Shown: piece after piece, positions 2,967 through 33,359 of the stretch
Layout of the letters: every line of letters begins with the position of its first letter
How positions within the stretch are numbered: position 1 is the stretch's first letter
Source of the DNA: a phage
NCBI GenBank assembly: GCA_033648345.1
Contig: GCA_033648345.1_4121.1
Length of the DNA stretch: 64,000 bases
Strand: one strand, 5' to 3'
Notes under the pieces: model-generated
What the model was told of the DNA's origin: nothing
The model's database searches: none
Seen by the model: only the letters and a program-made list of their open reading frames with translations
Position numbers and translations under genes: made by a program

Positions 2967-3194
2967 ATGACAAATACTCTTAAGTACTACCTCAATACTC
3001 TAAATGAACTAGAGTACGCGAAGTTTCTCGCGGATAGTTCGTGGCTAATTGAGCTAAAAACACATAACAGTACTGGATGTAACCTTATGCTGAACAATGC
3101 ACTTGATACCCTTGTAGTGAGTATTTTACACAGCACCATCTGCGGGGATAGCAATAAACAATTATCAAAAATCTTAGTACTGGTAGCTCTATGA
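2967..3194 (+). CDS. FamA-like small protein (divergent first member)
   Basis: 75 aa ORF with SD AAGGAG; LKYYLNTL N-terminus. Confidence 0.5.
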   Translation: MTNTLKYYLNTLNELEYAKFLADSSWLIELKTHNSTGCNLMLNNALDTLVVSILHSTICGDSNKQLSKILVLVAL

Positions 3195-3403
3195 ACACTA
3201 TGAACATTGAACAGTACTACATTGATGCACTACCAACAAAAGGTCTACGAGAAAGCCTACTGTATACACAAAATAATTATATAAACCTCAAACATTGTCC
3301 TAAACTCTTGAACTCGTACAGGAATAATAAAATAAGAAATGCTGTACAAGGGGTAGAAAGTATGCAATACTATTACATCCTAACCCTTTTAATCGAGCAC
3401 TAA
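3191..3403 (+). CDS. FamA small paralog
   Basis: ATGA overlap with upstream gene; EQYYID N-term motif. Confidence 0.6.
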   Translation: MNTMNIEQYYIDALPTKGLRESLLYTQNNYINLKHCPKLLNSYRNNKIRNAVQGVESMQYYYILTLLIEH

Positions 3404-3404
3404 T

Positions 3405-3590
3405 ATGTATAAAGAATTCTACTGTAGTAAGCTGCACAAACAATACAGAGATTCATTTCCCAATGAACCTATGGATATGAATAGTCCCTTTTATAAATTT
3501 GACTTCAGACTGGAGACACGTTATGCAATAGAACATCAATTTCCTGAAACTAAGTACTTATCTATCATGAACCTCATCTTTAAGTTCTAA
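3405..3590 (+). CDS. FamA small paralog
   Basis: MYKEFY N-term, LIFKF C-term; TAATATG junction. Confidence 0.6.
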   Translation: MYKEFYCSKLHKQYRDSFPNEPMDMNSPFYKFDFRLETRYAIEHQFPETKYLSIMNLIFKF

Positions 3591-3601
3591 AAGAGTACTA
3601 T

Positions 3602-3814
3602 ATGAAAACTATGAACATACACCAGTACTACTTAGATATTCTCCCTAAAGATGTACAGTTCATCCTTAAACAAGAATACAGTACTTTAAAAAACCTTAAA
3701 AGAACCGCACCGAATGTATTAATCCTGCACCAAGAAAATGTAGTTGATAATATTCTACAAGGTGTACCAGGGACCGAGTACTTTAACATAATAAGGCTAA
3801 TTACATTACCATGA
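3602..3814 (+). CDS. FamA small paralog
   Basis: Near-duplicate architecture of 3191..3403 (MxTMNIxQYY...LQGV). Confidence 0.6.
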   Translation: MKTMNIHQYYLDILPKDVQFILKQEYSTLKNLKRTAPNVLILHQENVVDNILQGVPGTEYFNIIRLITLP

Positions 3815-3996
3815 ATCATATATTATACTATTACCAAAATCTATCCGACAGGGACAAGTACACCCACAACTCCAATGTATGGTACTACAAACGCGGTAGT
3901 ATAAGAGACAAACAACATTACTTCTGTATTGCTATAAAAGAAGCACTAACAACTAAGTACACGTACAGAGCAGTACTGAAACTTATTGATATGTAA
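3811..3996 (+). CDS. FamA small paralog
   Basis: ATGA overlap; C-term VLKLIDM. Confidence 0.55.
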   Translation: MNHILYYYQNLSDRDKYTHNSNVWYYKRGSIRDKQHYFCIAIKEALTTKYTYRAVLKLIDM

Positions 3997-4006
3997 AGAG
4001 AATACT

Positions 4007-4192
4007 ATGAATACATTTGAGTACTATACAAATAAACTATCTATGCCAGAAAGATCTCATCTCTATGTGTGGAGAAATGCGTATAAAAGCGGCAATAAAC
4101 TTATACAAAGAAATTCCCTTACAGTGTGTACAAATTTAATTAAAGCAGAGTACCGCACATATATTGAAGTACTCAAACTGATAGCAATATAA
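4007..4192 (+). CDS. FamA small paralog
   Basis: Start moved to MNTFEYY after upstream stop; C-term VLKLIAI. Confidence 0.55.
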   Translation: MNTFEYYTNKLSMPERSHLYVWRNAYKSGNKLIQRNSLTVCTNLIKAEYRTYIEVLKLIAI

Positions 4193-4200
4193 GGTACTCT

Positions 4201-4380
4201 ATGCAAGAATTCTATATCTATAACCTCCAGCACAAAGATAGATACAACTATAATAAATTCCAAAGGTACTACACAGTCGGAAACAAAAGAGATAAAAAAC
4301 GATACTTTCTATCATGTACAGTAGAAGCACAAAACGAAAAGTACAGGTACAGAGAAGTACTTAAACTAATCTCTATGTAA
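4201..4380 (+). CDS. FamA small paralog (59 aa, absent from ORF track)
   Basis: MQEFYIYNL...VLKLISM by manual translation. Confidence 0.5.
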   Translation: MQEFYIYNLQHKDRYNYNKFQRYYTVGNKRDKKRYFLSCTVEAQNEKYRYREVLKLISM

Positions 4381-4388
4381 GGAATAAT

Positions 4389-4568
4389 ATGCAAGAATAC
4401 TATATAGAACACATAAACATTAAAGACCGTTTCATGTACGACACCTTCGTGAAGTACTACAACCTGGCAACTAACAGTACTAAAAATATTAATCTCAATA
4501 GCTGCATTCATCACGCACTAACAAAAGATAATCCCTTCAGGGAAATCCTCGCACTCGCATCTGTATAA
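4389..4568 (+). CDS. FamA small paralog (59 aa, absent from ORF track)
   Basis: MQEYYIEHI... by manual translation. Confidence 0.5.
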   Translation: MQEYYIEHINIKDRFMYDTFVKYYNLATNSTKNINLNSCIHHALTKDNPFREILALASV

Positions 4569-4578: not shown

Positions 4579-5238
4579 ATGAAACTTAATGCACACAGCA
4601 AACAATACCTTAAGCACTTTAAGTACCTCAACAGTATTCAAGCAGAATCTTTTACACCAGCATATACGTATCACCCAAATGTACTAAAGAAACGAAATAA
4701 AAAGAAAAAATCCAGAAATGTTCTCGTATCTAAGAACCTCAAATCGTACTTGAAGAAAAATAATATAGCTCTTGCTTTTATTAATATCTATCATACTGAT
4801 TTAAAAGTATTGAGTACTAATACCAGCACAAAAGCACTAAAGAATGCATCTATCTATATACACATGGATAATATCCCGTGCACTATAATTCTATCTTTCG
4901 GGAATGTATACTTCTTCGGGAATTGTAATAGCACCCATGATATCAGTACTGCACAATTCCAAATCGGAGATATGTACTGCATGGGTTCAGAAAAAATACA
5001 CGATAACATGCACTTCTTCCAAAAGCAACGTACTAACGAAACTGATACAGTACTGCAATTCCTCAAAGAACTACAAAACAAAGAATTAACACCAGAAGAA
5101 GAATTCATGTACAGTACTGTAATCGATAATCCAGAACTCTATAAAAACGCGTACAAACTAACAAAACATGTACAGGAACTTATCAGTACTGATAAGAAAT
5201 TTCATAACCTCATTACGTATATTACAAACTATGTATAA
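4579..5238 (+). CDS. 219-aa protein with FamC-like motif inside the FamA array
   Basis: Contains LTPEEEFMYSTVID, resembling the FamC EE-x-F-FQ-x-S-T-V motif. Confidence 0.55.
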   Translation: MKLNAHSKQYLKHFKYLNSIQAESFTPAYTYHPNVLKKRNKKKKSRNVLVSKNLKSYLKKNNIALAFINIYHTDLKVLSTNTSTKALKNASIYIHMDNIPCTIILSFGNVYFFGNCNSTHDISTAQFQIGDMYCMGSEKIHDNMHFFQKQRTNETDTVLQFLKELQNKELTPEEEFMYSTVIDNPELYKNAYKLTKHVQELISTDKKFHNLITYITNYV

Positions 5239-5413
5239 AGAATACTACAAAGATAAAATCCCAATGCATCTACAACACCATATACCAAACGTTGCATTGG
5301 GTATCAAAGATCACGCAAAGATAATGTTCCAACAATGTACTAAGTACACGCTCATATACGATGATAATCCATATATGCTGTACTACGTAGTAATGCTAAC
5401 ATTCAGGTACTAA
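5231..5413 (+). CDS. FamA small paralog
   Basis: Start moved to MYKEYY; C-term MLTFRY. Confidence 0.6.
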   Translation: MYKEYYKDKIPMHLQHHIPNVALGIKDHAKIMFQQCTKYTLIYDDNPYMLYYVVMLTFRY

Positions 5414-5415
5414 TA

Positions 5416-5613
5416 ATGAATATAAAAGAATACTACGTAAGTAAACTTGCAATTAATTACCAAATGCTTATTCCCCGCAATCCTGTAGATTTCAAAGATA
5501 AGAGCAAAACAATATACTACCGCCAGCATATAATGCATACAATAGAAGAAGATGATTATGATGATGATATGTATAACCTGTACAAAGTACTAACACTTAT
5601 ATTCAGGTACTAA
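5416..5613 (+). CDS. FamA small paralog
   Basis: MNIKEYY...LTLIFRY. Confidence 0.65.
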   Translation: MNIKEYYVSKLAINYQMLIPRNPVDFKDKSKTIYYRQHIMHTIEEDDYDDDMYNLYKVLTLIFRY

Positions 5614-5614
5614 T

Positions 5615-5800
5615 ATGTATAAAGAATACTACATAGAGAAACTCCCAATGTATCTCCAACACCTTGTACCAACAGAACCATTGGGTATAGAAAAAGACTA
5701 CGAAAAAGACTACTTCGTTAAGTGCACTAAATCCTCAATAGATATTGAGGACTATAATCGAGTACTGTATCACATCCTTTTACTAATATATAAGTACTAA
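5615..5800 (+). CDS. FamA small paralog
   Basis: MYKEYY...LLLIYKY. Confidence 0.65.
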   Translation: MYKEYYIEKLPMYLQHLVPTEPLGIEKDYEKDYFVKCTKSSIDIEDYNRVLYHILLLIYKY

Positions 5801-5801
5801 T

Positions 5802-5990
5802 ATGAATAACCACAAAGAATACTACACACAATTTCTCCCCAGCATTTTTGAACACTACGCCAGATATAAAGTCCCCCTGGATAACGATTTGGCAGTACTG
5901 GGATTCAATAACTGCATAGAACGAAGTATAGAAAATAGTAGTACTTATGACCAATTATATAACATCATACTACTCATATACAGGTACTAA
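5802..5990 (+). CDS. FamA small paralog
   Basis: MNNHKEYY...FNNCIERS...ILLIYRY. Confidence 0.65.
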   Translation: MNNHKEYYTQFLPSIFEHYARYKVPLDNDLAVLGFNNCIERSIENSSTYDQLYNIILLIYRY

Positions 5991-5991
5991 T

Positions 5992-6180
5992 ATGCATAAA
6001 GAATACTACACAAAATATTTCCCAATGTACCTCAGTACTAATCTATTAGATAAACCTCGCGGTATCAATGCTCAAAACGATAAAGTGTACTTTACTATGT
6101 GCACTAAAGCATGTATACTAGATTTTGATAGCTATCATCGAGTACTGTATCATACCCTGTACCTAGCTTTCGTGTACTAA
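5992..6180 (+). CDS. FamA small paralog
   Basis: Start moved to MHKEYY; C-term YLAFVY. Confidence 0.6.
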   Translation: MHKEYYTKYFPMYLSTNLLDKPRGINAQNDKVYFTMCTKACILDFDSYHRVLYHTLYLAFVY

Positions 6181-6190
6181 AGAGGCCAAT

Positions 6191-6397
6191 ATGAACGAAC
6201 AGAAAGAATTCTACACCAAATACCTCAGTGCATCAGAACAAATGTTTCTAAGGAGTGTATCACCTTTACGTTTAGATACACCACACGCCAGAGATTGTTT
6301 TAATAATTGTATACGTATTACTCTAGAAGCTTTAGAAAACAATAACAAAAATATTCAGTACTCAGGCGTAATGGGACTAATATTCTTCTATGAATAA
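6191..6397 (+). CDS. FamA small paralog
   Basis: MNEQKEFY...FNNCIRIT...LIFFYE. Confidence 0.65.
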   Translation: MNEQKEFYTKYLSASEQMFLRSVSPLRLDTPHARDCFNNCIRITLEALENNNKNIQYSGVMGLIFFYE

Positions 6398-6578
6398 CAA
6401 AGAATTCTACATAAACCATCTGGAACTAAACTCCCAAATGCTTATACCACTAAACCCAATAGATATCAAGGATAAGAAAAATACCAAACAATTCCACTAC
6501 CACACACTATGTGCTATCAACCCTGATTATAATACATATAAACTGTACTACATTCTCGCCCTAATATATAGGTACTGA
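6390..6578 (+). CDS. FamA small paralog
   Basis: MNNKEFY...LALIYRY. Confidence 0.65.
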   Translation: MNNKEFYINHLELNSQMLIPLNPIDIKDKKNTKQFHYHTLCAINPDYNTYKLYYILALIYRY

Positions 6579-6579
6579 T

Positions 6580-6765
6580 ATGCATAGAGAATACTATATA
6601 CAATTTGTTAAAGGGAACTACAAACACGCCGTCCCCGTAAACCCCTTAAATTCTAATGACCCAAGTACTATATTCTTGTTCCATGACGCAATACGTACAG
6701 TACTCAATACTAAAGATGAACAGGTGCAGTACGTATTCTTACTATTACTTATATACAGACACTAA
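6580..6765 (+). CDS. FamA small paralog
   Basis: MHREYY...LLLIYRH. Confidence 0.65.
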   Translation: MHREYYIQFVKGNYKHAVPVNPLNSNDPSTIFLFHDAIRTVLNTKDEQVQYVFLLLLIYRH

Positions 6766-6782
6766 AGCACTAAGGTACTAAC

Positions 6783-6986
6783 ATGTATAAAGACTTCTAC
6801 ATAAATCATCTTAGTCCCGCAAAACAATCATTCTATAAAGCAAAACCAATGAAAATGAAATTACAAAATAATTTCACAAAAATATGCTATAATAACTGTA
6901 TACGTAGTACTATACAAGCACTGCAAGAAAATGACAACAATAAACTATACTCCAACATAATGGCACTCCTATATATCTATGAATAA
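6783..6986 (+). CDS. FamA small paralog
   Basis: MYKDFY...YNNCIRST...LLYIYE. Confidence 0.65.
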   Translation: MYKDFYINHLSPAKQSFYKAKPMKMKLQNNFTKICYNNCIRSTIQALQENDNNKLYSNIMALLYIYE

Positions 6987-7188
6987 TGAACATAAAGAAT
7001 TCTACTCCAAACACCTCAGCCCCTCAGAACAAATGTTTCTAAGGACTACAGCACCTTTAAATACTGATACATATTTCGGCAGATTATGCTACAATAATTG
7101 TATTCAAATGACTTTAAACGCAAACGACAATAATAACAGTACTAACATGTACTCAGGCATCATAGGTATACTATTCCTATATGAATAA
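6979..7188 (+). CDS. FamA small paralog
   Basis: MNNEHKEFY...YNNCIQMT...LFLYE. Confidence 0.65.
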   Translation: MNNEHKEFYSKHLSPSEQMFLRTTAPLNTDTYFGRLCYNNCIQMTLNANDNNNSTNMYSGIIGILFLYE

Positions 7189-7369
7189 TTACAAAGACTT
7201 CTATTTGAATACACTACCTACTGTACTTTCTCTAAGTGCTCAATGTAAAATCCCGCTGGATAATCCTTACGCCAGATATAACTATTCCATAACTGTTAAT
7301 CGATGTATAGAGAATCATTGCAGTACTAACCAGTACTATAACATAATCCTACTTATATTCAGGTACTAA
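7181..7369 (+). CDS. FamA small paralog
   Basis: MNNYKDFY...ILLIFRY. Confidence 0.65.
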   Translation: MNNYKDFYLNTLPTVLSLSAQCKIPLDNPYARYNYSITVNRCIENHCSTNQYYNIILLIFRY

Positions 7370-7370
7370 T

Positions 7371-7550
7371 ATGAACGAACACAAAGACTTCTATATAAGA
7401 AAACTAACATTCGTCCCCGTAAAAATATATAAAGAATGCGACCCAAGATTATACCTATGGCACTTCAATGAGTGCATAAAAGATTCTATATACCCTAAGA
7501 ACTATAAAGAACAATTGTGCTCAGTACTAACACTAGTACTATCATATTAA
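7371..7550 (+). CDS. FamA small paralog (59 aa, absent from ORF track)
   Basis: MNEHKDFYIRKL... by manual translation. Confidence 0.5.
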   Translation: MNEHKDFYIRKLTFVPVKIYKECDPRLYLWHFNECIKDSIYPKNYKEQLCSVLTLVLSY

Positions 7551-7563
7551 TAGAGATAATACT

Positions 7564-7755
7564 ATGCATAAAGACTATAAAGAGTACTATATAAGTAAAC
7601 TCAAAGAGAATGAACAAGCATGGGTTAACAATTTAATCCCCCTGGCAATGACTCAATACGAATTTAATATGTGTACAAAGATTGTTTTAACTAGTAATGA
7701 TATCTCTAATACGTACTACTTCCTATTAAGAGTACTATATGGTACTTTGAAATAA
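7564..7755 (+). CDS. FamA small paralog
   Basis: MHKDYKEYYISKL... Confidence 0.6.
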   Translation: MHKDYKEYYISKLKENEQAWVNNLIPLAMTQYEFNMCTKIVLTSNDISNTYYFLLRVLYGTLK

Positions 7756-7766
7756 TAAGGTATACT

Positions 7767-7973
7767 ATGCAGAACATAAAAAACTATAAAGAGTACTATA
7801 TAAGTAAACTACCACCGACTGACCAAGCATGGATTAGATCTATAATAGTACTGGCATTTAATAGATATGCATTTAACAGATGTACCGAGATTGCTATAGA
7901 CCCTTATAATATTAAAGAGAATGTACAGCATAATCAGTACTACTATATGTTAATGCTTATATATAGGAAGTAA
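7767..7973 (+). CDS. FamA small paralog
   Basis: MQNIKNYKEYYISKL...LMLIYRK. Confidence 0.6.
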   Translation: MQNIKNYKEYYISKLPPTDQAWIRSIIVLAFNRYAFNRCTEIAIDPYNIKENVQHNQYYYMLMLIYRK

Positions 7974-8320
7974 TTCAACATATAGACAGGGGAAGCTCCG
8001 CAGGGAAAGCATTGGACAGGCTTTAACATATGTTATATATGTTAAAATTCAGCCTGCTCGACGTCTGAATTGTTAAAATTCAGCCTGGACAAATGCGATC
8101 ACTAGGATTCTCCCCAGGCTAAACCCCGTAATCATATGTAGTCATAAGTAATCATATATAAACATTTATGTAATCATTTATAATCATTGTAGTGATTAGT
8201 ATTGAGTACTAGAGTGTAATAGAGTGTAATAGAGTACAGGAATGTGCACGTTTAATCAAGAACGTAGCAGTACTGCCCCAAAAGTATTCAGTACTGAAGG
8301 TGTCGATATCCCACTAAGTA

Positions 8321-8346
8321 GGCAGAGGAAGTCTGCCGTACTTTTT
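8321..8346 (+). terminator. Terminator-like hairpin
   Basis: GGCAGA-GGAAG-TCTGCC followed by GTACTTTTT. Confidence 0.4.
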
Positions 8347-8681
8347 AGTTTCCAAGCTCCTTTTCCATTTTGCAAATTACATCAAATGTAATCAAAAGTA
8401 ATCACGCAATGATTAGTACTGAATTATTACTTTCACCTTAATTTCAATTACCCCTTTACCCTTCGGGGTAAAATTCCATTACCCCTTGAGGCTCCAGCAA
8501 AAAGTTGGTTAGTACTCCATCCTAAATCTCGATCCTAAAAATTTTGGAGTACCTATGAAATAAAAGTTGGATCTTCGAAAGTTGAAATTTACGTTGGGAC
8601 GTTTGTGATTTGTGGGATATAATGATGTTTGTAGTCGGGTAGTTCTCAAGAATATCAGTACTGAATGGTGAAAGAAAGTTA

Positions 8682-8709
8682 TTGACATTATGATTCAGTA
8701 CTGTATAAT
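8682..8709 (+). promoter_or_regulatory. Orphan sigma70-type promoter in non-coding region
   Basis: TTGACA-16-TATAAT followed by GTTTTACAT; no long ORF downstream. Confidence 0.45.
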
Positions 8710-9096
8710 GTTTTACATAGAGAGATGAGTTGCCGCAAACAATTCATTCACTCTACTTCCTGTCGTGAGACAGTACAGAAAGATAGTTCCTCCTATGGGT
8801 GGTACATCTTTTAGAACCTCTTTTTTCGTAATATGAACAGTACTGATATTAACAGAATGGTGTCAATACTGATTTTAATCTAAAGCATTATGCCACCAGC
8901 TTGTGCTGGTGGATTCCCTCTAACAGTATTCAGTACTACATGATAGTCTTCATCCTCCTAGGGTAACATAGTGAGGGCTATGATGGCAGTACTGAATACT
9001 CCTTTCACAAGATAGATCTATGGTATAGTACTGACGTATTTTGGGCGTAGTTACCCTGGATGGATTTTGGACGTAGATATGTCTAGCCCTCCAGAA

Positions 9097-9240
9097 GTCT
9101 GGAAGTAAATATGGCTATCCATCTAGACGGCTAAACGGCTAGATTTCTGGATGGCTGGGTGGCTGGGTGGCTGGGTGGCTAGACGTTTGGACGGCTAAAC
9201 GGCTAGATGGTTACACGTCTGGAAGTATAGACGGCTAAAT
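9097..9240. repeat. Iteron cluster with near-symmetric architecture
   Basis: (GGCTGGGT)x3.5 tandem at 9153-9180 flanked by two copies of TAGACGGCTAAACGGCTAGAT and outer GTCTGGAAGTA repeats. Confidence 0.65.
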
Positions 9241-9998
9241 CAAAATTTTATTTTGTTTTTTCCAATAGTTCCCCTACCGCGTGGGGATAGTTTCCCCGCA
9301 GTATCTGGAGTTAGATTTTTCTGAATCTGGAATCATTATCTTATAAACTGGGGGCAATGTCAACAGCCTGGACGGATATTTTTAAAAATTTTTTCAGTAC
9401 TGAATTTTGGGCGTAACTATGCACCCGGTGGGCTTGAGTCTTTCTCGACTTGATGGAACTATTATACAGTACTGGAAAAATAAAGCAATACCCTGGAAGC
9501 AAAAAAGTTTTAATTAATTTGCTTGCTATCCTGGGCCGGACTATGGTACTATATTTCAGTACTGAGAAAGTGCGTTTACCTGCTAGGGTGCGGGAGTGTA
9601 TCCTTTTTTTATATCTTGAATTTTGGGCGTAATTCCGCACCCTCTGGGGTTTCCGCTTTCTCGCGTCTATGTAGTAATTATACGCTTTTTCAGGATCAAG
9701 TCAATACCTAAAAACAAAATAATTGAAAATAATTTAACGCGTTTAAACGGCCAGTAAAGCCCTGGAATGATTGGAATGGTGCAAATGTATAGCTTAGGTG
9801 TATTAATGCGTTAGAATGCGTCTGAGGCCGTTTTATGGGGTATAGGGATGATTTGGTGGATTGATTCAGTACTGAATAATAGTACTACTATATAGAAAGA
9901 TAGTTCCCCTGGATGGTTGCAGTACTGAATGATAGTACTGAATAATAGTTCCCCTATATAGAAAGAAAACTATTTTAAAAAGTATTTGTAGAAAGTAC

Positions 9999-10026
9999 TT
10001 GCAAACTAAGTTTAACGGCGTATAAT
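9999..10026 (+). promoter_or_regulatory. Class-I early promoter
   Basis: AAAGTACTTGCAA-16-TATAAT-GTTTTACATC consensus. Confidence 0.6.
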
Positions 10027-10081
10027 GTTTTACATCGAGAGCGGGAACACTTCCCGCTACATATTACGAGAGATTAAAACG

Positions 10082-10444
10082 ATGGCGACTCAAATCACTA
10101 AAATTATTGCTAACCTGGTTAACTTCCGCGACGAGATGAAAGGTCTTCCGGCTGAAACGGTAAAAATTCACATCGCAGCTTATCGGGAACTTATTGCAAT
10201 GTTGCCGCTTAAGCGTGAACAATACGCCGCGACCGTGATGCTTGATGCGATGATCCATAAGATGATCGCCAGTGATTTGACGATGGCGTATCAGTATATG
10301 GGTGAATTGTTCGCGGTGTATAGTAAACCAGTACCAGGAATGGAAAGTACAGAAGTATTACACGGTTTAAATTTAAAACAAGATGCATGGGATAATATGC
10401 CTCGTTTCCTGGTATGGGCTGACAGTGGCAAGATTTACGAATAA
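10082..10444 (+). CDS. Hypothetical early protein (120 aa)
   Basis: Start moved from track ORF 10025 to Met after the 5'UTR hairpin GCGGGAACACTTCCCGC. Confidence 0.65.
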   Translation: MATQITKIIANLVNFRDEMKGLPAETVKIHIAAYRELIAMLPLKREQYAATVMLDAMIHKMIASDLTMAYQYMGELFAVYSKPVPGMESTEVLHGLNLKQDAWDNMPRFLVWADSGKIYE

Positions 10445-10458
10445 GTTTTAGAAAGTAC

Positions 10459-10486
10459 TTGCAAACTAAGTTTAAAAGCGTATAAT
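10459..10486 (+). promoter_or_regulatory. Class-I early promoter
   Basis: TTGCAA-16-TATAAT. Confidence 0.6.
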
Positions 10487-10536
10487 GTTTTACATCAGGT
10501 GGGGAATAGTTCCCCACTATATAAGAGGATTAAAAA

Positions 10537-10776
10537 ATGGCTAAATCAAAAATGTTCTTAGGTCACAAAAACAAAACTCATTGGAATGTAAGCCTTTGGA
10601 TTAATAACGATGAGTCATTGTACCGGTTGGCCCTGGACTTTATTGCCGCCAATACTAATCGCAATGATGCGGCCCGTCATATGATGTTATTTTTAGAACA
10701 GACTGGACAAGATAAAACACCGGACGGATTCAAATATAGCACTACTGCGATCCGTGCGGCGATGGTTGGAATGTAA
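10537..10776 (+). CDS. Hypothetical early protein; paralog of 12576..12815
   Basis: Shared GHKNKTxWNVSLWINN...TPDGFKYSTTAIRAAMVGM; SD AAGAGGA. Confidence 0.7.
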   Translation: MAKSKMFLGHKNKTHWNVSLWINNDESLYRLALDFIAANTNRNDAARHMMLFLEQTGQDKTPDGFKYSTTAIRAAMVGM

Positions 10777-10861
10777 TAGAATTTATTTAAAGTACTATCG
10801 CAAAAAATGATAGTACTTTATAATAGTGTTTTATTCATACACCAACGATAAGGGCAACAGC

Positions 10862-11128
10862 ATGAATATTAAGTATTTTGCGACGCGTGAACAAGCTCGG
10901 ATCGCCGCACGCCAGGACGGGGCAACGTTTAAAGATATGGGCGTACAATCGGAACGTGGTAAACGTTGGGCCATTATAAAGCGTAGTACCGCCAGATCAT
11001 TACAGTACTGGTTAGCGGCGTTAAAAAGTCCCGATAGTGTATCGCGTCGAGTGGTAGAAATAAAGCTCGACCGAAAGGGCAACCGCGTGACCGTGTACCG
11101 TACTAAAAAGATTGCAGTACTTGAATAA
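10862..11128 (+). CDS. Hypothetical early protein; paralog of 23885..24280
   Basis: Shared KYFATREQARIAARQDGATFKDMG and DRKGNRVTVY motifs; start moved to MNIKYF. Confidence 0.65.
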   Translation: MNIKYFATREQARIAARQDGATFKDMGVQSERGKRWAIIKRSTARSLQYWLAALKSPDSVSRRVVEIKLDRKGNRVTVYRTKKIAVLE

Positions 11129-11135
11129 AAAGTAC

Positions 11136-11163
11136 TTGCAAACTATGTTTAATGGCGTATAAT
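11136..11163 (+). promoter_or_regulatory. Class-I early promoter
   Basis: TTGCAA-16-TATAAT. Confidence 0.6.
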
Positions 11164-11215
11164 GTTTTACATCGAGAGCGGGAACACTTCCCGCCTATAA
11201 CCTGGAGTAATAAAA

Positions 11216-11446
11216 ATGACTAATATGTATATGACTGAAGTTAAAACCGTAAAAGATACTACCACGAATAAAACTACTTACTTACAGCGGATCTGCGGTG
11301 TATGGCAACGTATCAGCAAATCAAAGTACTTTAAATTAACATCATATGCAAACCGTTCGGATTCATTCAGTACTGAAATAAAAGGTAATAAAGTACACCA
11401 ATACGGCACTTATTATTATTATAGCCTGGACGCGATTGCAGTATAA
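11216..11446 (+). CDS. Hypothetical early protein (76 aa)
   Basis: ORF after promoter, hairpin and SD GGAGT. Confidence 0.6.
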   Translation: MTNMYMTEVKTVKDTTTNKTTYLQRICGVWQRISKSKYFKLTSYANRSDSFSTEIKGNKVHQYGTYYYYSLDAIAV

Positions 11447-11476
11447 GCAGTTTACAAATCTTTACAATTGCCGGTA

Positions 11477-11505
11477 TTGACTTATTTTGTCAGTACTGGC
11501 ATAAT
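11477..11505 (+). promoter_or_regulatory. Promoter of convergent pair (candidate small-RNA promoter)
   Basis: TTGACT-17-CATAAT; no ORF downstream, followed by the conserved CCCA-GGGTGC leader motif. Confidence 0.5.
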
Positions 11506-11620
11506 GTATTCATTGGCAGATAAGCCGTAGCCCATAGGGTGCGGGAGTGTATCTATAGAAAAAGTAGTTTATTACAGTTACAATTGTGCACCCGGTGGGT
11601 TAGCTGTTGTCATGGGGTAT

Positions 11621-11649
11621 ATTATGCCAGTACTTGATAATGCTGTCAA
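11621..11649 (-). promoter_or_regulatory. Convergent minus-strand promoter
   Basis: Reverse complement reads TTGACA-17-CATAAT and faces the promoter at 11477. Confidence 0.5.
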
Positions 11650-11695
11650 TACTTTTTTTTACTATTCAGTACTGAAAACTATTTTTAAAAAGTAC

Positions 11696-11723
11696 TTGCA
11701 AACTATGTTTAAAGGCGTATAAT
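11696..11723 (+). promoter_or_regulatory. Class-I early promoter (P1 of tandem pair)
   Basis: TTGCAA-16-TATAAT followed by structured leader ACATCAGGACGGGGAACG... Confidence 0.55.
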
Positions 11724-11813
11724 GTTTTACATCAGGACGGGGAACGAAATAAGTAACTCCCCGTTAAGTAGCCCAGGAGTAAGGCACACGAAAAACTCCC
11801 CTGATAAAATAGT

Positions 11814-11841
11814 TTGACAAATGTTTTTAAAAGCGTATAAT
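11814..11841 (+). promoter_or_regulatory. Promoter P2 of tandem pair
   Basis: TTGACA-16-TATAAT. Confidence 0.55.
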
Positions 11842-11873
11842 ACTTACATCAACTACTGAATGAGGGTTACAAA

Positions 11874-12485
11874 ATGAAAACTATCACTACTACTACTTTC
11901 GTTATGGATTTTTCTGAATTGAACGCAGAACAAAAAACGTCAGCTATCGAACTGGTTCGGGAACGTGAAAAAAACTCAAACGACAATTATTTTTCTGAAA
12001 GTGAAATTGAATACTATAAAGAAACAGTACTACCGGAATATGGCATTAATGACGCTGAAATACAATTCAGTGGTTTTTGGTCCCAGGGTGACGGTGCATC
12101 AATCAGTACTGACCACGTTGACGGTGTGAAGTTTTTACGCAAGGTAAGAGCATTAACTAAGTATCGCTCAATCCGTCACTTGCTGAATGAAGATGATTTG
12201 GCGATGAGTGTAAAGCGTTCTCATTCTTTGTACTTGCATGAGAATACTGTAAGCGGGTACATTGAATCGGCTTACACTGATTTAACCGCAAAACAAGAAA
12301 CGTTAGTTAATGAGCTTGAGGAACTACTCACTGAAACTATTCGTGAATTATCCCGCAAGTTGTACCGTGATTTAGAGAATGCATATGAGGATCAATTCAC
12401 TACTGAAAACATCGTATCACTGATTGAGGGTAACGAATATCAATTCAATGTTATTGATGGCGTAGTAGAATCAATCGAATATTAA
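11874..12485 (+). CDS. Hypothetical acidic early protein (203 aa)
   Basis: ORF with upstream tandem promoters; SD GAGGG. Confidence 0.7.
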   Translation: MKTITTTTFVMDFSELNAEQKTSAIELVREREKNSNDNYFSESEIEYYKETVLPEYGINDAEIQFSGFWSQGDGASISTDHVDGVKFLRKVRALTKYRSIRHLLNEDDLAMSVKRSHSLYLHENTVSGYIESAYTDLTAKQETLVNELEELLTETIRELSRKLYRDLENAYEDQFTTENIVSLIEGNEYQFNVIDGVVESIEY

Positions 12486-12497
12486 TTCAAAAAGTAC

Positions 12498-12525
12498 TTG
12501 CAAACTAAGTTTAAAAGCGTATAAT
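12498..12525 (+). promoter_or_regulatory. Class-I early promoter
   Basis: TTGCAA-16-TATAAT. Confidence 0.6.
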
Positions 12526-12575
12526 ACTTTATATCGAGGCGGGGAGTGGTTCCCCGCTCAAACGAGGATTTAAAA

Positions 12576-12815
12576 ATGGCTAGTACTAAAACTTATAACG
12601 GACACAAAAACAAAACTCAATGGAATGTAAGCCTTTGGATTAATAACGGTGAGTCATTGTATCGGCTTGCACAAAGTTGTATCGCACAAAGTAGAACTAA
12701 AGATATTGCAGCGGAATGCATGTACCGCAGATTAAAAGCCAACGGTACTACTACAACGCCGGACGGCTTTAAGTATAGCACTACTGCGATCCGTGCTGCA
12801 ATGGTTGGAATGTAA
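12576..12815 (+). CDS. Hypothetical early protein; paralog of 10537..10776
   Basis: Start moved to MASTKTYNGHK after hairpin GGCGGGGAGTGGTTCCCCGC. Confidence 0.7.
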   Translation: MASTKTYNGHKNKTQWNVSLWINNGESLYRLAQSCIAQSRTKDIAAECMYRRLKANGTTTTPDGFKYSTTAIRAAMVGM

Positions 12816-12873
12816 TATTCAGTACTGTAACAATGGCGGGGAATGGTTCCCGCCTTTATTGAGGGTTTATCTA

Positions 12874-13134
12874 ATGAGTAAAGTAATTAACTATACAGTA
12901 CTAAGCAAGTCATTGTCTATCAGTGAATGCACCGATGGTTTTTGGCTTTATGATGAAACGCGTGGAATGAATTTAGCTATGCGTGTAAAAACTGCTGAGG
13001 CGGCGTATCTTGAGGCACTGGAATACTACCAGGAACGTTTAACGGAAGTAGAAGAAGATTATAAAAGCCTCAAAGCGAAAGTAGATCATTTCGTCGGTCA
13101 ATTCATCGAGGAAGACGACGATAAACAATACTGA
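12874..13134 (+). CDS. Hypothetical early protein (86 aa)
   Basis: Start moved to MSKVINY after hairpin GGCGGGGAATGGTTCCCGCC and SD GAGGG. Confidence 0.6.
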   Translation: MSKVINYTVLSKSLSISECTDGFWLYDETRGMNLAMRVKTAEAAYLEALEYYQERLTEVEEDYKSLKAKVDHFVGQFIEEDDDKQY

Positions 13135-13222
13135 AAAAAAGTACTTGCAATTAGTTTTCAGTACTGTATAATAGTTTACATCAAGTGGAGAAATGGTTCT
13201 CCCTGGTAATGAGGAAAATAAA

Positions 13223-13444
13223 ATGGCTAATATCACTACTCTTTCCCAACTGGAAGCACTGGTTAAATCTATGCGGGAACATGCCGACAAAATCGGCGTA
13301 CAAGATCCAGCCGTTTGCTTCTGCGACGAATTGAATGATGATACCCTTGTAATAGCAGAAGTCCAGGACGTTTCTAACTATTCCTCGCGTTACACTGGCG
13401 GCGTAGCAAATAAAGGCGACTTCTGTTTATACCTTACAAAATAA
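13223..13444 (+). CDS. Hypothetical early protein (73 aa)
   Basis: Start moved to MANITT after hairpin and SD. Confidence 0.6.
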   Translation: MANITTLSQLEALVKSMREHADKIGVQDPAVCFCDELNDDTLVIAEVQDVSNYSSRYTGGVANKGDFCLYLTK

Positions 13445-13449
13445 CAACG

Positions 13450-13480
13450 CGGGGAGATAATAACTCCCCGTTACTTTTTC
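13450..13480 (+). terminator. Rho-independent terminator
   Basis: CGGGGAGATAATAACTCCCCG followed by TTACTTTTT. Confidence 0.6.
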
Positions 13481-13550
13481 AGTACTGAATCATTTAATAG
13501 ACGGATCTATGCACCCGGTGGGTTAGTGACTGTTTCGTCTTGATGTAGTA

Positions 13551-13579
13551 ATTATGCCAGTACTGGATGCAGTTGTCAA
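13551..13579 (-). promoter_or_regulatory. Minus-strand promoter with conserved leader (candidate small RNA)
   Basis: Reverse complement TTGACA-17-CATAAT followed by ACATCAAGACG...CCCACCGGGTGCAT; no ORF. Confidence 0.45.
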
Positions 13580-13612
13580 CAACTATTTTTCAAATACTTT
13601 TTATTAAAATAC

Positions 13613-13640
13613 TTGCAATTAGTTTTTAAACGCGTATAAT
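13613..13640 (+). promoter_or_regulatory. Class-I early promoter
   Basis: TTGCAA-16-TATAAT. Confidence 0.55.
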
Positions 13641-13687
13641 GTTTTGCATAGGGGGAGCGGTTCCCCTGGTAACTAAGGAATAATAAA

Positions 13688-13924
13688 ATGCTTGAACAAA
13701 TCAAATCAACGTCTGCGAATGTAACGGGAACGGTAGCACACTTTACTAGTGATGAATCGCGGGGCGTTCCCTATTGTGCTGTACATGTAAACACTGATGG
13801 CAACTACTGGTTTACGGTTTACGGATCATATTCATTTGGACGGCCTGGGCATCAAAAAATTCTGGATAAAGTACAACCAACGGGTAAAAATATCACTGCC
13901 GAAATGTTTTATAAAAAATCATAA
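13688..13924 (+). CDS. Hypothetical early protein (78 aa)
   Basis: Hairpin GGGGGAGCGGTTCCCC then SD AAGGAA. Confidence 0.65.
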   Translation: MLEQIKSTSANVTGTVAHFTSDESRGVPYCAVHVNTDGNYWFTVYGSYSFGRPGHQKILDKVQPTGKNITAEMFYKKS

Positions 13925-13929
13925 AGTAC

Positions 13930-13957
13930 TTGATAATAGTTTTTAGTACTGTATAAT
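13930..13957 (+). promoter_or_regulatory. Early promoter
   Basis: TTGATA-16-TATAAT. Confidence 0.5.
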
Positions 13958-14008
13958 ATTTTACATCGCAAGGGGGAGCGGTTCCCCCTAGTAACTAAGG
14001 ATAATCAA

Positions 14009-14308
14009 ATGAAAATTGCAATCATCGCCCTGGCTTTATCTGTTTCCTCTTTCGCTGTTAATGCGTCATTAGATGTAAGTAGTGAAAAATTCATTCAGTG
14101 CACTGTTGCAATGACCGATGAAAGAACTGGCGAGATTGTATTAAAGGATTTAGAGATCCAGCCGGAAGCATTTAAAAACGGCCCGTTCCATGAAGAAGAC
14201 GAAAACGGTAGCACAACAATTTATTATGATGCCAGTACTAAACGCGGTTCGGTCACTGTAATGGATACTGAGAAAGTAACTCATACTGGCGTTATTAATT
14301 GCCGTTGA
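14009..14308 (+). CDS. Small secreted/periplasmic protein
   Basis: N-terminal signal-peptide-like MKIAIIALALSVSSFAVNA. Confidence 0.65.
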   Translation: MKIAIIALALSVSSFAVNASLDVSSEKFIQCTVAMTDERTGEIVLKDLEIQPEAFKNGPFHEEDENGSTTIYYDASTKRGSVTVMDTEKVTHTGVINCR

Positions 14309-14329
14309 TAGATACTACGGGGTAACATC

Positions 14330-14560
14330 ATGACTAAGCGAATTGTTTTACTTAACGAAAGCAGTACTACACAACTACTTAACGCCGTGCATTATGATAT
14401 TGAAACGAGCGTTAATCTTATCAGTACTGTAGTACTGTTGGACACTGGAAAGGTCGCCAATGATAAAGCGATTGCAGGTATATTAACGGATCTTGAGCCT
14501 GGTAGCAGTGCACCAATAACGTTAAATGGTAAAGTGTTTAATATTTTACTCACTGATTAA
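14330..14560 (+). CDS. Hypothetical protein (76 aa)
   Basis: ORF closely following upstream gene. Confidence 0.55.
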   Translation: MTKRIVLLNESSTTQLLNAVHYDIETSVNLISTVVLLDTGKVANDKAIAGILTDLEPGSSAPITLNGKVFNILLTD

Positions 14561-14566
14561 GTACAT

Positions 14567-14594
14567 AGCCCACCTGGTGGGCTTTTTTGTTTTT
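14567..14594 (+). terminator. Rho-independent terminator
   Basis: AGCCCACC-TGGTGGGCT followed by TTTTTTGTTTTTG. Confidence 0.75.
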
Positions 14595-14642
14595 GTAGTA
14601 TCGTAGTACTGAGATACTTTGAAAATAGTTTTAAAAAAGTAG

Positions 14643-14670
14643 TTGACATTACCGCAGAAAAGCGTAGAAT
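14643..14670 (+). promoter_or_regulatory. Early promoter
   Basis: TTGACA-16-TAGAAT followed by conserved leader ACATCAAGACGGGGAGC. Confidence 0.5.
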
Positions 14671-14793
14671 GTATTACATCAAGACGGGGAGCACTAAGTA
14701 GACCGCCAGTAAGTCGAACGAAAAACTGGACACGTCGAGAAAACTTTGATACACTAATAAACGTAAACTAAACTTTAATTGAGGATTTATAAA

Positions 14794-15276
14794 ATGGCTA
14801 ATGTAAAATCATTCATCAAAGCACTGGTAGCAAATGAAACTAACGTCGCGGCAGAGATCCTGGCTGAACTGGATAACGATACCATGAAAGCGGTACGCAA
14901 TAATTTTAACATCGCGTACAGTACTGCGAAAGAACTACAAGCAAATAAAGCAGCAGAGATCGAGGCAGCAAAGGCGGCCCGTGAAGCAGAACTACAAGCA
15001 ACAATTGAAAGTATTCAGGCGGCAGTAGTTGGATTGGATCTGGAAGTAGTTACAGAGATGGCACAAAAAGCCCTGGCGAAAAAGTACGGGGAAGACAAGC
15101 CAGAAGTAAAAGCCAAAAAATGGATTCAAGAACGTGTAGCGGTAGTACTTGATAATGGGGAAGAATATCTGATTCCGGTGCGTGGTAACTGCATTGCTGT
15201 AGTACTGGATGCGATTAACTCCAGCGGTATGACTCGCGAGGAATGGATCGAAGCTCATCGCAAAGTGGAAGCATAA
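14794..15276 (+). CDS. Hypothetical protein with Ala/Glu-rich helical segment (160 aa)
   Basis: Start moved to MANVKSF after SD GAGGA. Confidence 0.65.
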   Translation: MANVKSFIKALVANETNVAAEILAELDNDTMKAVRNNFNIAYSTAKELQANKAAEIEAAKAAREAELQATIESIQAAVVGLDLEVVTEMAQKALAKKYGEDKPEVKAKKWIQERVAVVLDNGEEYLIPVRGNCIAVVLDAINSSGMTREEWIEAHRKVEA

Positions 15277-15297
15277 CAATTAAAGTACTGAATCACT

Positions 15298-15325
15298 AGC
15301 CCACTGTATAAGTGGGCTTTTTTGT
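15298..15325 (+). terminator. Rho-independent terminator
   Basis: AGCCCAC-TGTATAA-GTGGGCT followed by TTTTTTG. Confidence 0.75.
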
Positions 15326-15477
15326 GTTTATCGTTTACCAGGCCACCAGCACCGCCTAGAATCGATTCTAACGCATTAAACTGATTATCTGATGCATCGC
15401 CCTAGCTGGTGGAGTTAAGGCCGTTAGAATGCGATTTAGAGCGTTTAAAGTATTTTGCAAAAAGTAATAAAAAGTAC

Positions 15478-15505
15478 TTGCACGATTCAGAGATTAGCGT
15501 ATAAT
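15478..15505 (+). promoter_or_regulatory. Class-I early promoter
   Basis: TTGCAC-16-TATAAT. Confidence 0.5.
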
Positions 15506-15550
15506 GTTTTACATCAAGGCGAAACACCTTAACTAACTGAGGATATAAAG

Positions 15551-15703
15551 ATGAATACTTATGAACTGGATTGTTTCACTATGCAAGTAATGTTAGTATG
15601 CAGTAAAAAAGAATGGTCATCAAAGGAATTTAAAGCAGTTATTGCGTGTGCAAAACACGGCAAGACTATCAATGAAACGGCATCAATCATTGATAAACTT
15701 TAA
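15551..15703 (+). CDS. Small hypothetical protein (50 aa, absent from ORF track)
   Basis: Manual translation MNTYELDCFTMQ... with SD GAGGA. Confidence 0.45.
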   Translation: MNTYELDCFTMQVMLVCSKKEWSSKEFKAVIACAKHGKTINETASIIDKL

Positions 15704-33358: not shown

Positions 33359-33359
33359 C

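What the first reader, a model, noticed from the sequence alone, without database searches (positions are those of the whole stretch)
4579..5238. A FamC-like gene sits inside the FamA array, and FamB-like genes sit inside the FamC array
The 219-aa gene at 4579..5238 carries LTPEEEFMYSTVID, resembling the FamC core, in the middle of the FamA array. Conversely, FamB-type LGT-x-x-QE genes occur at 37809..38060, 49771..49989 and 49967..50161 inside the FamC array, and a FamC gene (36272..36616) precedes the last FamB gene. This points to recombination or shuffling between arrays, or an ancestral mixed operon that expanded unevenly.
Basis: partly seen in the sequence, partly recalled or inferred. 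Interest (0 to 1): 0.6.

Follow-up and report, generated by a model that had tools for sequence, protein, structure and literature searches.

The report
Mixed paralog gene arrays, jumbo phage
In a giant E. coli phage, three big families of small duplicated genes sit in long rows, and the few members found in the "wrong" row are real but old residents left by uneven local gene duplication, not signs of recent shuffling.

Summary
The window comes from an Asteriusvirus jumbo coliphage (PBECO4/121Q group). It holds three tandem families on the + strand, placed around the collapsed ~21 kb terminal repeat: FamA (~21 genes), FamB (~31) and FamC (~50).

The FamB-type genes at 36620, 37809, 49771 and 49967, and the FamC gene at 36272, are clear family members by leave-out HMMs and PHROG 4148.

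The 219-aa gene at 4579-5238 is a weaker case. Alone it scores only marginally against FamC. Three things support it as a divergent FamC-superfamily member (about 0.75-0.8):
- The motif is its most conserved block.
- Its 35-38 %-identical positional orthologue in phages JNE01 and Turkey5 has the canonical SEDEMFQWSTII.
- Profile-profile comparison (85-89 %, P 2.5e-6 to 6e-6) is as strong as between the two genuine FamC subgroups.

- The out-of-place genes sit at orthologous positions in 121Q and JNE01.
- They are only 25-37 % identical to any paralogue.
- No nucleotide repeats link the arrays.
- In Klebsiella phage RaK2, a different genus, FamB-like and FamC-like genes are interleaved in many small blocks.

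Single genes are still being gained and lost. Function is unknown. This is ordinary multigene-family dynamics and of modest interest.

The parts
4579..5238 (+). 219-aa gene (PHROG 29152; orthologue of 121Q gp256). Probable divergent FamC-superfamily member, embedded in the FamA-type operon.
   Evidence: ORF; PHROG. Found in 36 phage records, always one copy. Same position in 121Q and JNE01. hhalign against FamC gives 85-89 %.
5086..5127 (+). Codons for LTPEEEFMYSTVID (aa 170-183), the FamC-type core with Q replaced by M.
   Evidence: Most conserved block in 17 orthologues. The JNE01 orthologue has SEDEMFQWSTII at this place. hhalign aligns exactly here.
2967..4568 (+). Upstream FamA-type block. 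One FamA gene (3405-3590), two 'x' genes (3191, 3602), four 'a' genes (3811-4568) and a weak x-like ORF at 2967.
   Evidence: BLAST clusters; HMMs. FamA against the a and x sub-families gives hhalign P ~7e-4 over nearly the full length.
5231..7973 (+). Main FamA block: 14 genes of ~60 aa ending ...LIYRY. The first start codon overlaps the stop of the 219-aa gene by 8 nt.
   Evidence: Candidate promoter at 2913-2941 and terminator-like site at 8321-8337. Internal promoter-like sites do not exceed chance.
8250..29733 (+). Equivalent of the ~21.5 kb direct terminal repeat, collapsed to one copy. An early-gene region with 30 promoter-plus-hairpin cassettes. It separates FamA from FamB/FamC.
   Evidence: Mapping to vB_Ec-M-J and fEgEco12 (PMC13070987). 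Cassettes. The left boundary is approximate.
29866..30231 (+). Degenerate FamC-like gene (121 aa, no FQ) in a 564-nt insertion at the boundary between terminal repeat and unique region, just upstream of the FamB block.
   Evidence: BLASTP to 36272-36616 at E = 2e-4. hhalign against short FamC gives P = 2.5e-4, the top non-FamC ORF. Best 121Q hit is a short FamC gene, E = 5e-5. Present only in PBECO4 and BF17. Insertion mapped.
30318..36282 (+). Main FamB block: 27 genes of ~65-95 aa with LGTNYQE.
36272..36616 (+). Short-type FamC gene lying between FamB genes.
   Evidence: FamC HMM 2.8e-14 and 9e-16. 83 % orthologue at the same place in 121Q.
36620..36835 (+). FamB gene after the first FamC gene. 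A variable member.
   Evidence: Leave-out HMM 1.5e-16. No positional orthologue in 121Q. Present in 11 phage records at 74-99 % identity.
37109..37780 (+). Two short-type FamC genes (37109-37459, 37469-37780).
   Evidence: Only the second has a 121Q orthologue, at 84 %.
37809..38060 (+). FamB-type gene (LGTSVQEE) beyond the first FamC genes.
   Evidence: Leave-out HMM 3.2e-9. PHROG 4148 at 1.2e-4. 74 % orthologue in 121Q. Reciprocal best hit to a RaK2 FamB-like gene.
38770..63666 (+). Main FamC array: ~45 genes of 100-212 aa with core [LM][ST]EExxFQxS[TL][VI]. It runs to the window end.
   Evidence: AF2 model of 47155-47643 has pLDDT 85.5.
49771..50161 (+). Pair of overlapping FamB-type genes (49771-49989, 49967-50161) inside the FamC array.
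   Evidence: Leave-out HMM 6.1e-8 and 8.4e-15. PHROG 4148. 94 % and 81 % orthologues at the same place in 121Q.

Best explanation
The window is the accessory-gene region of an Asteriusvirus jumbo coliphage. It contains three multigene families of small non-virion proteins in tightly packed, same-strand operons on either side of the long terminal repeat. FamA lies at the right end of the unique region. FamB and FamC lie directly after the left repeat.

The families grow and shrink by local tandem duplication and loss (shown). FamB and FamC were already interleaved in the common ancestor of Asteriusvirus and the RaK2 group (shown by comparison). In the Asteriusvirus line one FamB block amplified to 27 copies and the FamC genes amplified further downstream. 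This left single FamC and FamB genes stranded at conserved positions on the 'wrong' side (inferred from synteny).

The 219-aa gene is an old, divergent member of the FamC superfamily. At the least, it carries the FamC signature helix. It became fixed between two FamA sub-blocks before the genus diversified, and in most lineages the otherwise invariant Q changed to M.

Function is not shown. The most likely role, by inference only, is early or middle host-takeover or anti-defence. In that reading the conserved EExxFQxS helix plus the following hydrophobic helix form the common scaffold, and the variable N-terminal beta-rich part gives specificity.
For: Identity of the phage.

Family membership of the out-of-place FamB and FamC genes.

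219-aa gene:
- Motif conservation.
- Canonical FQ in the JNE01 and Turkey5 orthologues.
- hhalign 85 %, P = 6.3e-6 against the 45-sequence FamC core. 88.7 %, P = 2.5e-6 against 59 short FamC sequences.
- This equals the score between the two true FamC subgroups (85.2 %, 6.1e-6). Controls give P >= 0.4.
- Its six best BLASTP hits among 107 RaK2 ORFs are all FamC-type genes at the motif. The best is E = 0.002 over 40 aa and reaches into the C-terminal helices.

Age and synteny:
- Orthologue table against 121Q.
- Layouts x A x a a a a [219] A14, x A A a a a [223] A9 and x x a A a [224] A10.
- RaK2 order BBCcc...C..BB.C...CC.cCcCCcc.BB...B...ccBBBB....BBB..CCBCCCCCC....
- The RaK2 early region upstream is collinear with window 15.8-29.3 kb.

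Tandem mechanism:
- The best paralogue lies within two genes for 37 % of FamB, 55 % of FamC and 57 % of FamA genes. Random expectation is 7-18 %, with 0 of 2000 permutations as high.
- Adjacent nucleotide-level repeats occur only within families.

Non-virion status: the phAPEC6 virion proteome table lists nothing between gp347 and gp549, while a FamC orthologue is gp442c.

Early-region context:
- 30 promoter cassettes are confined to the terminal repeat.
- The CBB paper assigns the repeat-adjacent region to early host takeover (PMC5259590).
Against: - The 219-aa protein itself is not found by the full-length FamC HMM.
- It belongs to its own PHROG.
- It lacks the invariant Q.
- Only ~18-20 columns align with confidence.
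- Its AF2 model is unusable (pLDDT 39.6), so a shared fold is not shown.
- The FamB neighbour-joining tree is unresolved, so an 'old lineage' status for the out-of-place FamB genes rests on synteny alone.
- RaK2 and Asteriusvirus orders are not collinear gene for gene. Independent interleaving in the two genera cannot be strictly excluded.
- Nothing here addresses expression timing or function in this phage.
Confidence: 0.7

Rival explanations
1. Recent recombination or transposition moved single genes between arrays. Examples would be a FamC gene copied into the FamA array, or FamB genes copied into the FamC array.
For: Single-gene presence/absence differences do exist:
- 36620 and 37109 lack positional orthologues in 121Q, and 121Q has an extra FamB gene.
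- 36620 is in only 11 records.
- The FamC-like 29866 gene sits in an insertion found only in PBECO4 and BF17.
Against:
- They share at most 37 % identity with any paralogue.
- No nucleotide repeats link the arrays.
- 36620 itself is 74-99 % identical among its carriers and only 29 % identical to its nearest paralogue. That fits old origin plus loss or exchange, not a fresh copy.
Confidence: 0.1
2. The 219-aa protein is not homologous to FamC. It shares the EEExF-x-YSTV stretch by chance, or by convergence on the same short functional motif such as a common docking peptide.
For: - The single-sequence scores are marginal: E = 0.086 and 31 of 5000 shuffles; P = 0.008 among 131 tests.
- The alignable region is ~20 residues.
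- It has a separate PHROG.
- There is no usable structure.
Against: - The motif is the most conserved part of the family.
- A 35 % orthologue has the exact FamC consensus including FQ.
- The profile-profile score equals that between genuine FamC subgroups, and controls are flat.
- The architecture matches: a variable N-terminal part, the motif in the last third, then a ~35-aa helical tail.
- In the confident FamC model the motif is an integral helix of the fold, not a disordered linear motif.
- The BLASTP alignment to RaK2 R_25058 extends 25 residues past the motif.
Confidence: 0.2
3. FamB and FamC are two halves of one functional system, for example a small helical partner plus an effector. 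Selection keeps them interleaved, so the 'out-of-place' genes are cognate partners rather than relics.
For: - The two families co-occur and are interleaved in two genera.
- The stranded FamB genes are retained at 74-94 % identity between this phage and 121Q.
- Genes are packed with overlapping stops and starts.
Against: - Copy numbers are not paired. There are 27 FamB genes in a row with no FamC, and long FamC runs with no FamB.
- There is no detectable sequence relation or fusion between the families (hhalign P = 0.38-0.65).
- Interleaving is equally expected from neutral birth-and-death in a shared accessory region.
Confidence: 0.15

Closest known systems
Tandem paralogue arrays of Rak2-like jumbo phages. 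[quoted passage not shown] 2017); ~10 % paralogues in RaK2 (PMC3622015); 22 paralogous ORFs in CBB (PMC5259590).
   Same: Same phage group. Same mechanism proposed in the literature, genome growth by tandem duplication. Same class of small hypothetical proteins. The window's genes are orthologues of annotated hypothetical proteins in 121Q, PBECO4 and phAPEC6.
   Different: Those papers mention paralogy only in general terms. None of the papers read or searched here describes the three families, the EExxFQxS and LGTNYQE signatures, the FamB/FamC interleaving shared with RaK2, or the FamC-like gene inside the FamA array.
Birth-and-death multigene families in the terminal variable regions of large DNA viruses, for example the African swine fever virus MGF110/360/505 families and poxvirus terminal host-range families (from my own knowledge, not tested here).
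   Same: Several unrelated families of small proteins lie next to the genome termini or terminal repeats. They are interleaved. Copy number varies between close strains. Nearest paralogues tend to be neighbours.
   Different: Those are eukaryotic viruses with known immune-evasion roles. Here the host is a bacterium and no function is known. There is no sequence or fold relation.
PHROG families 4148 (FamB); 9317, 12674, 15629 and 13866 (FamC subgroups); 11711 (FamA); 29152 (the 219-aa gene). All are of unknown function.
   Same: Window proteins match these profiles end to end.
   Different: PHROGs splits FamC into several unlinked families and keeps the 219-aa gene apart. The analysis here links them through the shared core.
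Pre-early and early gene regions in long direct terminal repeats, for example phage T5 (own knowledge) and the predicted early region of CBB (PMC5259590).
   Same: A ~21 kb terminal repeat full of small genes, each behind a strong sigma-70-type promoter. The arrays are immediately adjacent and on the same strand.
   Different: The FamA, FamB and FamC arrays themselves lack these promoter cassettes. Their timing is unknown.

Membership tests
FamC (EExxFQxS family) - tested for the 219-aa gene 4579-5238 | Acidic pair, then aromatic F four residues on, then S-[TL]-[VI] (core [LM][ST]EExxF.xS[TL][VI]). | tested here: met
   L-T-P-E-E-E-F-M-Y-S-T-V-I-D aligns column for column with the FamC core. 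The block is invariant in 17 orthologues.
FamC (EExxFQxS family) - tested for the 219-aa gene 4579-5238 | Invariant Q after the F. Q is invariant in 45 of 45 window members and present in nearly all of the 77 library hits. | tested here: not met
   The window gene and its 64-98 % orthologues have M (FMYST). The 35-38 % positional orthologues in JNE01 and Turkey5 do have FQ (FQWST).
FamC (EExxFQxS family) - tested for the 219-aa gene 4579-5238 | Significant match to a family profile. | tested here: inconclusive
   Against membership:
- Full HMM: no hit.
- Core HMM: 6.3 bits, E = 0.086.
- No FamC PHROG hit.

For membership:
- Family-level hhalign gives 85-89 %, P = 2.5e-6 to 6.3e-6. This equals the FamC-short against FamC-long score, with flat controls.
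- The JNE01 orthologue hits the HMMs at E ~1e-3.
FamC (EExxFQxS family) - tested for the 219-aa gene 4579-5238 | Architecture: variable N-terminal part, the motif in the last third, then a 35-60 aa mostly helical tail. | tested here: met
   The motif is at aa 170-183 of 219 and is followed by 36 residues. The sequence shows this directly.
FamC (EExxFQxS family) - tested for the 219-aa gene 4579-5238 | Shared alpha/beta fold: N-terminal helix, beta-sheet, motif helix, long hydrophobic helix. | not testable with these tools
   The FamC model is confident (pLDDT 85.5, pTM 0.82). The 219-aa model is not (pLDDT 39.6), and both prediction jobs are used. The order of secondary-structure elements is similar but unreliable.
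FamB (LGTNYQE family, PHROG 4148) - tested for 36620, 37809, 49771, 49967 | Match to a profile built without them, and to PHROG 4148. | tested here: met
   Leave-out HMM E = 1.5e-16, 3.2e-9, 6.1e-8 and 8.4e-15. PHROG 4148 E = 1.2e-4, 6.2e-4 and 1.6e-16 for 37809, 49771 and 49967. 36620 was not submitted to PHROGs.
FamB (LGTNYQE family, PHROG 4148) - tested for 36620, 37809, 49771, 49967 | G-T-x-x-Q core about 20 residues from the C-terminus, in a 60-95 aa protein. | tested here: met
   VGTNYQA, LGTSVQE and LGTQYQE. 49771 has the variant VGSNKQD. Full-length alignment.
FamC - tested for 36272-36616 | Profile match and core motif. | tested here: met
   HMM 2.8e-14 and 9e-16. LSPEEYFQESLVWD. PHROG 13866 at 1.4e-7, shared with short FamC genes.
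One superfamily uniting FamB and FamC (considered) | Detectable profile-profile similarity between the two families. | tested here: not met
   hhalign P = 0.38, 0.42 and 0.65.

The most novel reading that the evidence does not exclude
FamB and FamC form a co-evolving two-part arsenal kept interleaved across Rak2-like genera. Diversified FamC proteins, including the 219-aa outlier, would share one docking helix (EExxFQxS) for a common host or phage partner. The small helical FamB proteins would act as their modulators. On this view the 'misplaced' genes mark functional pairings rather than evolutionary debris.
Probability: 0.12. Interest if true: 0.6.

Novelty: new member of a known kind. Interest (0 to 1): 0.3.

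Why it matters
More than 100 of the ~180 genes in this window belong to three families of unknown function. Families like these make up a sizeable part of the 350-380 kb genomes of this phage group.

The analysis shows three things:
- The families are old.
- FamB and FamC travel together across genera.
- Fragmented database families, including the 219-aa gene, share one core.

This reduces the number of unknowns and points to a single conserved helix as the place to start experiments. The specific finding, a few genes in the 'wrong' array, is what birth-and-death evolution of tandem families normally produces. It needs no special mechanism.

Tried and rejected
- **AF2 of the 219-aa protein.** Run with its 17 orthologues, it gave pLDDT 39.6 and no fold comparison was possible.
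- **Sequence profiles against PDB, Pfam and NCBIfam.** Nothing above threshold.
- **FamB and FamC as one superfamily.** Tested because of the YQE/FQE look-alike. Rejected at P = 0.38-0.65.
- **A 'FamA-like' hit inside the FamC array (40506-40847).** Spurious: 5.4 bits, hhalign P = 0.04.
- **P0046 in the library search.** A repetitive 997-aa artefact, not a relative.
- **tblastn with family consensus sequences.** Too weak to map the families outside the genus, apart from one RaK2 lead.
- **Neighbour-joining tree of FamB with RaK2 members.** Only adjacent duplicate pairs get at least 50 % bootstrap, so no phylogenetic placement of the out-of-place genes is claimed.
- **Third homologue search, seeded with the JNE01 orthologue.** It found one near-identical protein and no new diversity.
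- **tRNA and Rfam scans of the window.** Empty.
- **First batch of hhalign controls.** Timed out and was re-run in parallel.

Full report
**What the window is**

Megablast places the window in the Asteriusvirus jumbo coliphages (PBECO4, 121Q, G17, BF17, WPEC3, fEgEco12 and relatives). Identity is 83-97 % over long stretches.

These phages have ~21 kb direct terminal repeats (PMC13070987; annotated in vB_Ec-M-J). Mapping to vB_Ec-M-J and fEgEco12 shows the following:
- Window ~8.25-29.73 kb is one collapsed copy of that repeat.
- The FamA array (to 7973) is the right end of the unique region.
- The FamB array (from 30318) starts about 100 nt after the repeat in relatives.

The repeat holds 30 + strand copies of a conserved sigma-70-type promoter plus hairpin cassette. 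None lies inside the three arrays.

**The families**

All-against-all BLASTP and iterated HMMs on + strand ORFs give these families:
- **FamA.** 15 genes of ~60 aa, plus two small sub-families (a: four genes at 3811-4568; x: 3191 and 3602). The sub-families are distant FamA relatives, hhalign P ~7e-4 over almost the full length.
- **FamB.** 30 genes in one BLAST cluster plus a degenerate one at 32028. The core is LGTNYQE.
- **FamC.** About 46 genes of 100-212 aa carrying [LM][ST]EExxFQxS[TL][VI], plus a few degenerate ones.

FamC splits into short (~105-135 aa) and long (~145-210 aa) subgroups. Profile comparison links these only through the core (85.2 %, P = 6.1e-6).

**Checking the FamB and FamC placements**

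A FamB HMM built only from the contiguous block finds 36620, 37809, 49771 and 49967 at E = 1.5e-16 to 6.1e-8. PHROG 4148, the family of canonical FamB genes, also hits the three inside the FamC region. All align end to end. The gene at 36272-36616 is a clear short FamC gene. These parts of the observation are confirmed.

**Checking the 219-aa gene**

The peptide LTPEEEFMYSTVID is there (aa 170-183).

Taken alone the evidence is thin:
- No hit to the full FamC HMM.
- 6.3 bits and E = 0.086 against a 40-column core HMM, level with an unrelated ORF.
- 31 of 5000 shuffles do as well.
- P = 0.008 in a 131-ORF hhalign screen.
- It forms its own PHROG, 29152.

Three further results change the picture.

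*Conservation.* In 17 orthologues (63-98 % identity) the block E-L-x-x-E-x-x-F-M-Y-S-T-V-I-x-N-P is the most conserved stretch of the protein.

*Divergent orthologues.* tblastn found 35 %-identical copies in phages JNE01 and Turkey5. They sit at the same position in the array. Their motif reads YSEDEMFQWSTII, the exact FamC consensus including the Q. That protein hits the FamC HMMs at E = 1e-3 and 5.6e-4 for 177 ORFs, with 2 of 5000 shuffles as good.

*Profile-profile comparison.* The family, with these two added, was compared against FamC:

| Comparison | Probability | P |
|---|---|---|
| vs short FamC | 78 % | 1.7e-5 |
| vs 45-sequence C-terminal core | 85 % | 6.3e-6 |
| vs 59 short FamC sequences from three sources | 88.7 % | 2.5e-6 |
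| FamC short vs FamC long (reference) | 85.2 % | 6.1e-6 |
| Controls vs FamA and FamB | - | 0.4-0.9 |

In addition, the six best BLASTP hits of the 219-aa protein among 107 RaK2 ORFs are all FamC-type genes, aligned at the motif. The best (E = 0.002) runs 25 residues past the motif.

I therefore read the gene as a divergent FamC-superfamily member with a Q-to-M change, at about 0.75-0.8. A shared fold could not be tested because its AF2 model has pLDDT 39.6.

**How old is the mixing?**

Comparison with 121Q (~83 % nucleotide identity in this region) gives these results:
- Almost every FamB and FamC gene has a positional orthologue at 55-96 % identity. Its nearest paralogue in the same genome is only 25-50 % identical.
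- This includes 36272 (83 %), 37809 (74 %), 49771 (94 %) and 49967 (81 %).
- The FamA-side layouts are x A x a a a a [219] A14 (window), x A A a a a [223] A9 (121Q) and x x a A a [224] A10 (JNE01). The large gene keeps its slot while copy numbers change on both sides.
- No nucleotide repeats connect different arrays. Repeats of 100-230 nt occur only between neighbouring genes of one family.
- The best paralogue lies within two genes for 37 % of FamB, 55 % of FamC and 57 % of FamA genes. Random expectation is 7-18 %, with 0 of 2000 permutations as high.

**Outgroup**

A weak tblastn lead pointed to RaK2 (genus Alcyoneusvirus). I scanned 40 kb of it with the window's HMMs.

RaK2 has both FamB-like genes (LGTDYQN, LGTNFQE) and FamC-like genes (TEEGYFQYSTI and similar). 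They are interleaved in many small blocks: BBCcc...C..BB.C...CC.cCcCCcc.BB...B...ccBBBB....BBB..CCBCCCCCCcCccccCc.Ccc. These blocks lie downstream of an early region that is collinear with window 15.8-29.3 kb.

Foldseek against BFVD with a confident model of a FamC protein (pLDDT 85.5, pTM 0.82) likewise finds uncharacterised proteins of 121Q, RaK2, GAP32, Serratia phage BF and Yersinia phage fHe-Yen9-03.

So the FamB/FamC mixture predates the genus. In Asteriusvirus one FamB block expanded to 27 genes.

**Ongoing flux**

- 36620 and 37109 have no positional orthologue in 121Q. 121Q has an extra FamB gene. 39320/39628, 33847/34073 and 32684/32919/33360 are younger tandem copies.
- 36620 occurs in 11 of ~36 genomes at 74-99 % identity.
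It occurs only in PBECO4 and BF17.
- With it, the FamB block is bracketed by FamC-like genes whose closest window relatives are each other.

**Function**

- A profile of the FamC core finds only 77 proteins at E <= 1e-3 among 1.84 billion representatives. All but one artefact are 49-192 aa proteins, and those inspected show the same core motif.
- In the model the motif forms a short confident helix (residues 109-117) before a long hydrophobic helix. This argues for a structural core element rather than an exposed linear motif or cleavage site.
- In phAPEC6 no protein between gp347 and gp549 was found in virions, and a FamC orthologue is gp442c.
- The CBB paper assigns the repeat-adjacent region of Rak2-like phages to early host takeover.

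An early or middle accessory role, host takeover or anti-defence, is my best guess. It is inference only.

**Literature**

[quoted passage not shown] I found no description of these three families, their signatures or their interleaving.

**Verdict**

The 219-aa gene is the weakest but still supported part. The 'ancestral mixed operon that expanded unevenly' reading is supported. Recent inter-array shuffling is not, apart from sporadic single-gene gain and loss. This is a normal birth-and-death pattern in a little-studied set of phage families. Interest is modest (0.3). Novelty: new member of a known kind.

Noticed in passing
window 8703-28857 (+): 30 copies of a conserved cassette: AAAAAGTACTTGCAA, a 17-nt spacer, GTATAATGTTTTACAT, then a GGGGAGAA....TTCTCCCC hairpin, a ribosome-binding site and ATG. 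All are on the + strand and confined to the collapsed terminal repeat. The pattern search gives 34 matches against 3.3 expected.
   Followed up: partly
window 22507-22601, 25785-25879, 28236-28330: Three copies of a 95-nt element with the palindrome GGGATTGACTCCGGTCAGTCCC followed by TATTATA. It may be a regulated promoter or operator. Not examined further (family D20).
   Followed up: no
window 29751-30314: A 564-nt insertion relative to vB_Ec-M-J, starting 17 nt beyond the annotated end of the terminal repeat. It carries a degenerate FamC-like gene (29866-30231) found only in PBECO4 and BF17 at 98 % identity.
   Followed up: yes
window 478-1644 and 1698-2882 (-): Two RCC1-like paralogues divergent from the FamA operon. 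121Q annotates four such genes as 'regulator of chromosome condensation'. The phAPEC6 homologues gp549 and gp551 were detected in virions.
   Followed up: partly
window 16228-16295 and 16522-16589: A 68-nt promoter-like repeat, 100 % identical in two copies 294 nt apart. Two more diverged copies lie at 19640 and 27606 (family D15).
   Followed up: no
window 39320-39631 / 39628-39978; 33847-34107 / 34073-34330; 32684 / 32919 / 33360: Young tandem duplicates (50-65 % protein identity, 66-78 % nucleotide identity), each group matching a single gene in 121Q. These are direct examples of the amplification process.
   Followed up: yes
FamC core, e.g. window 48815-49270 (EEGYFQGS) and 47155-47643 (EEYYFQNS): The core E-E-x-Y-F-Q-x-S resembles the TEV protease site ENLYFQ/S (own knowledge). 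AF2 places it in a confident helix and nothing suggests cleavage.
   Followed up: no
L005 (RaK2, NC_019526 232722-272898): RaK2 has its own large interleaved FamB-like/FamC-like region (at least ~20 FamB-like and ~40 FamC-like ORFs) after an early region collinear with the window's terminal repeat genes. As far as I could find, this has not been described.
   Followed up: partly
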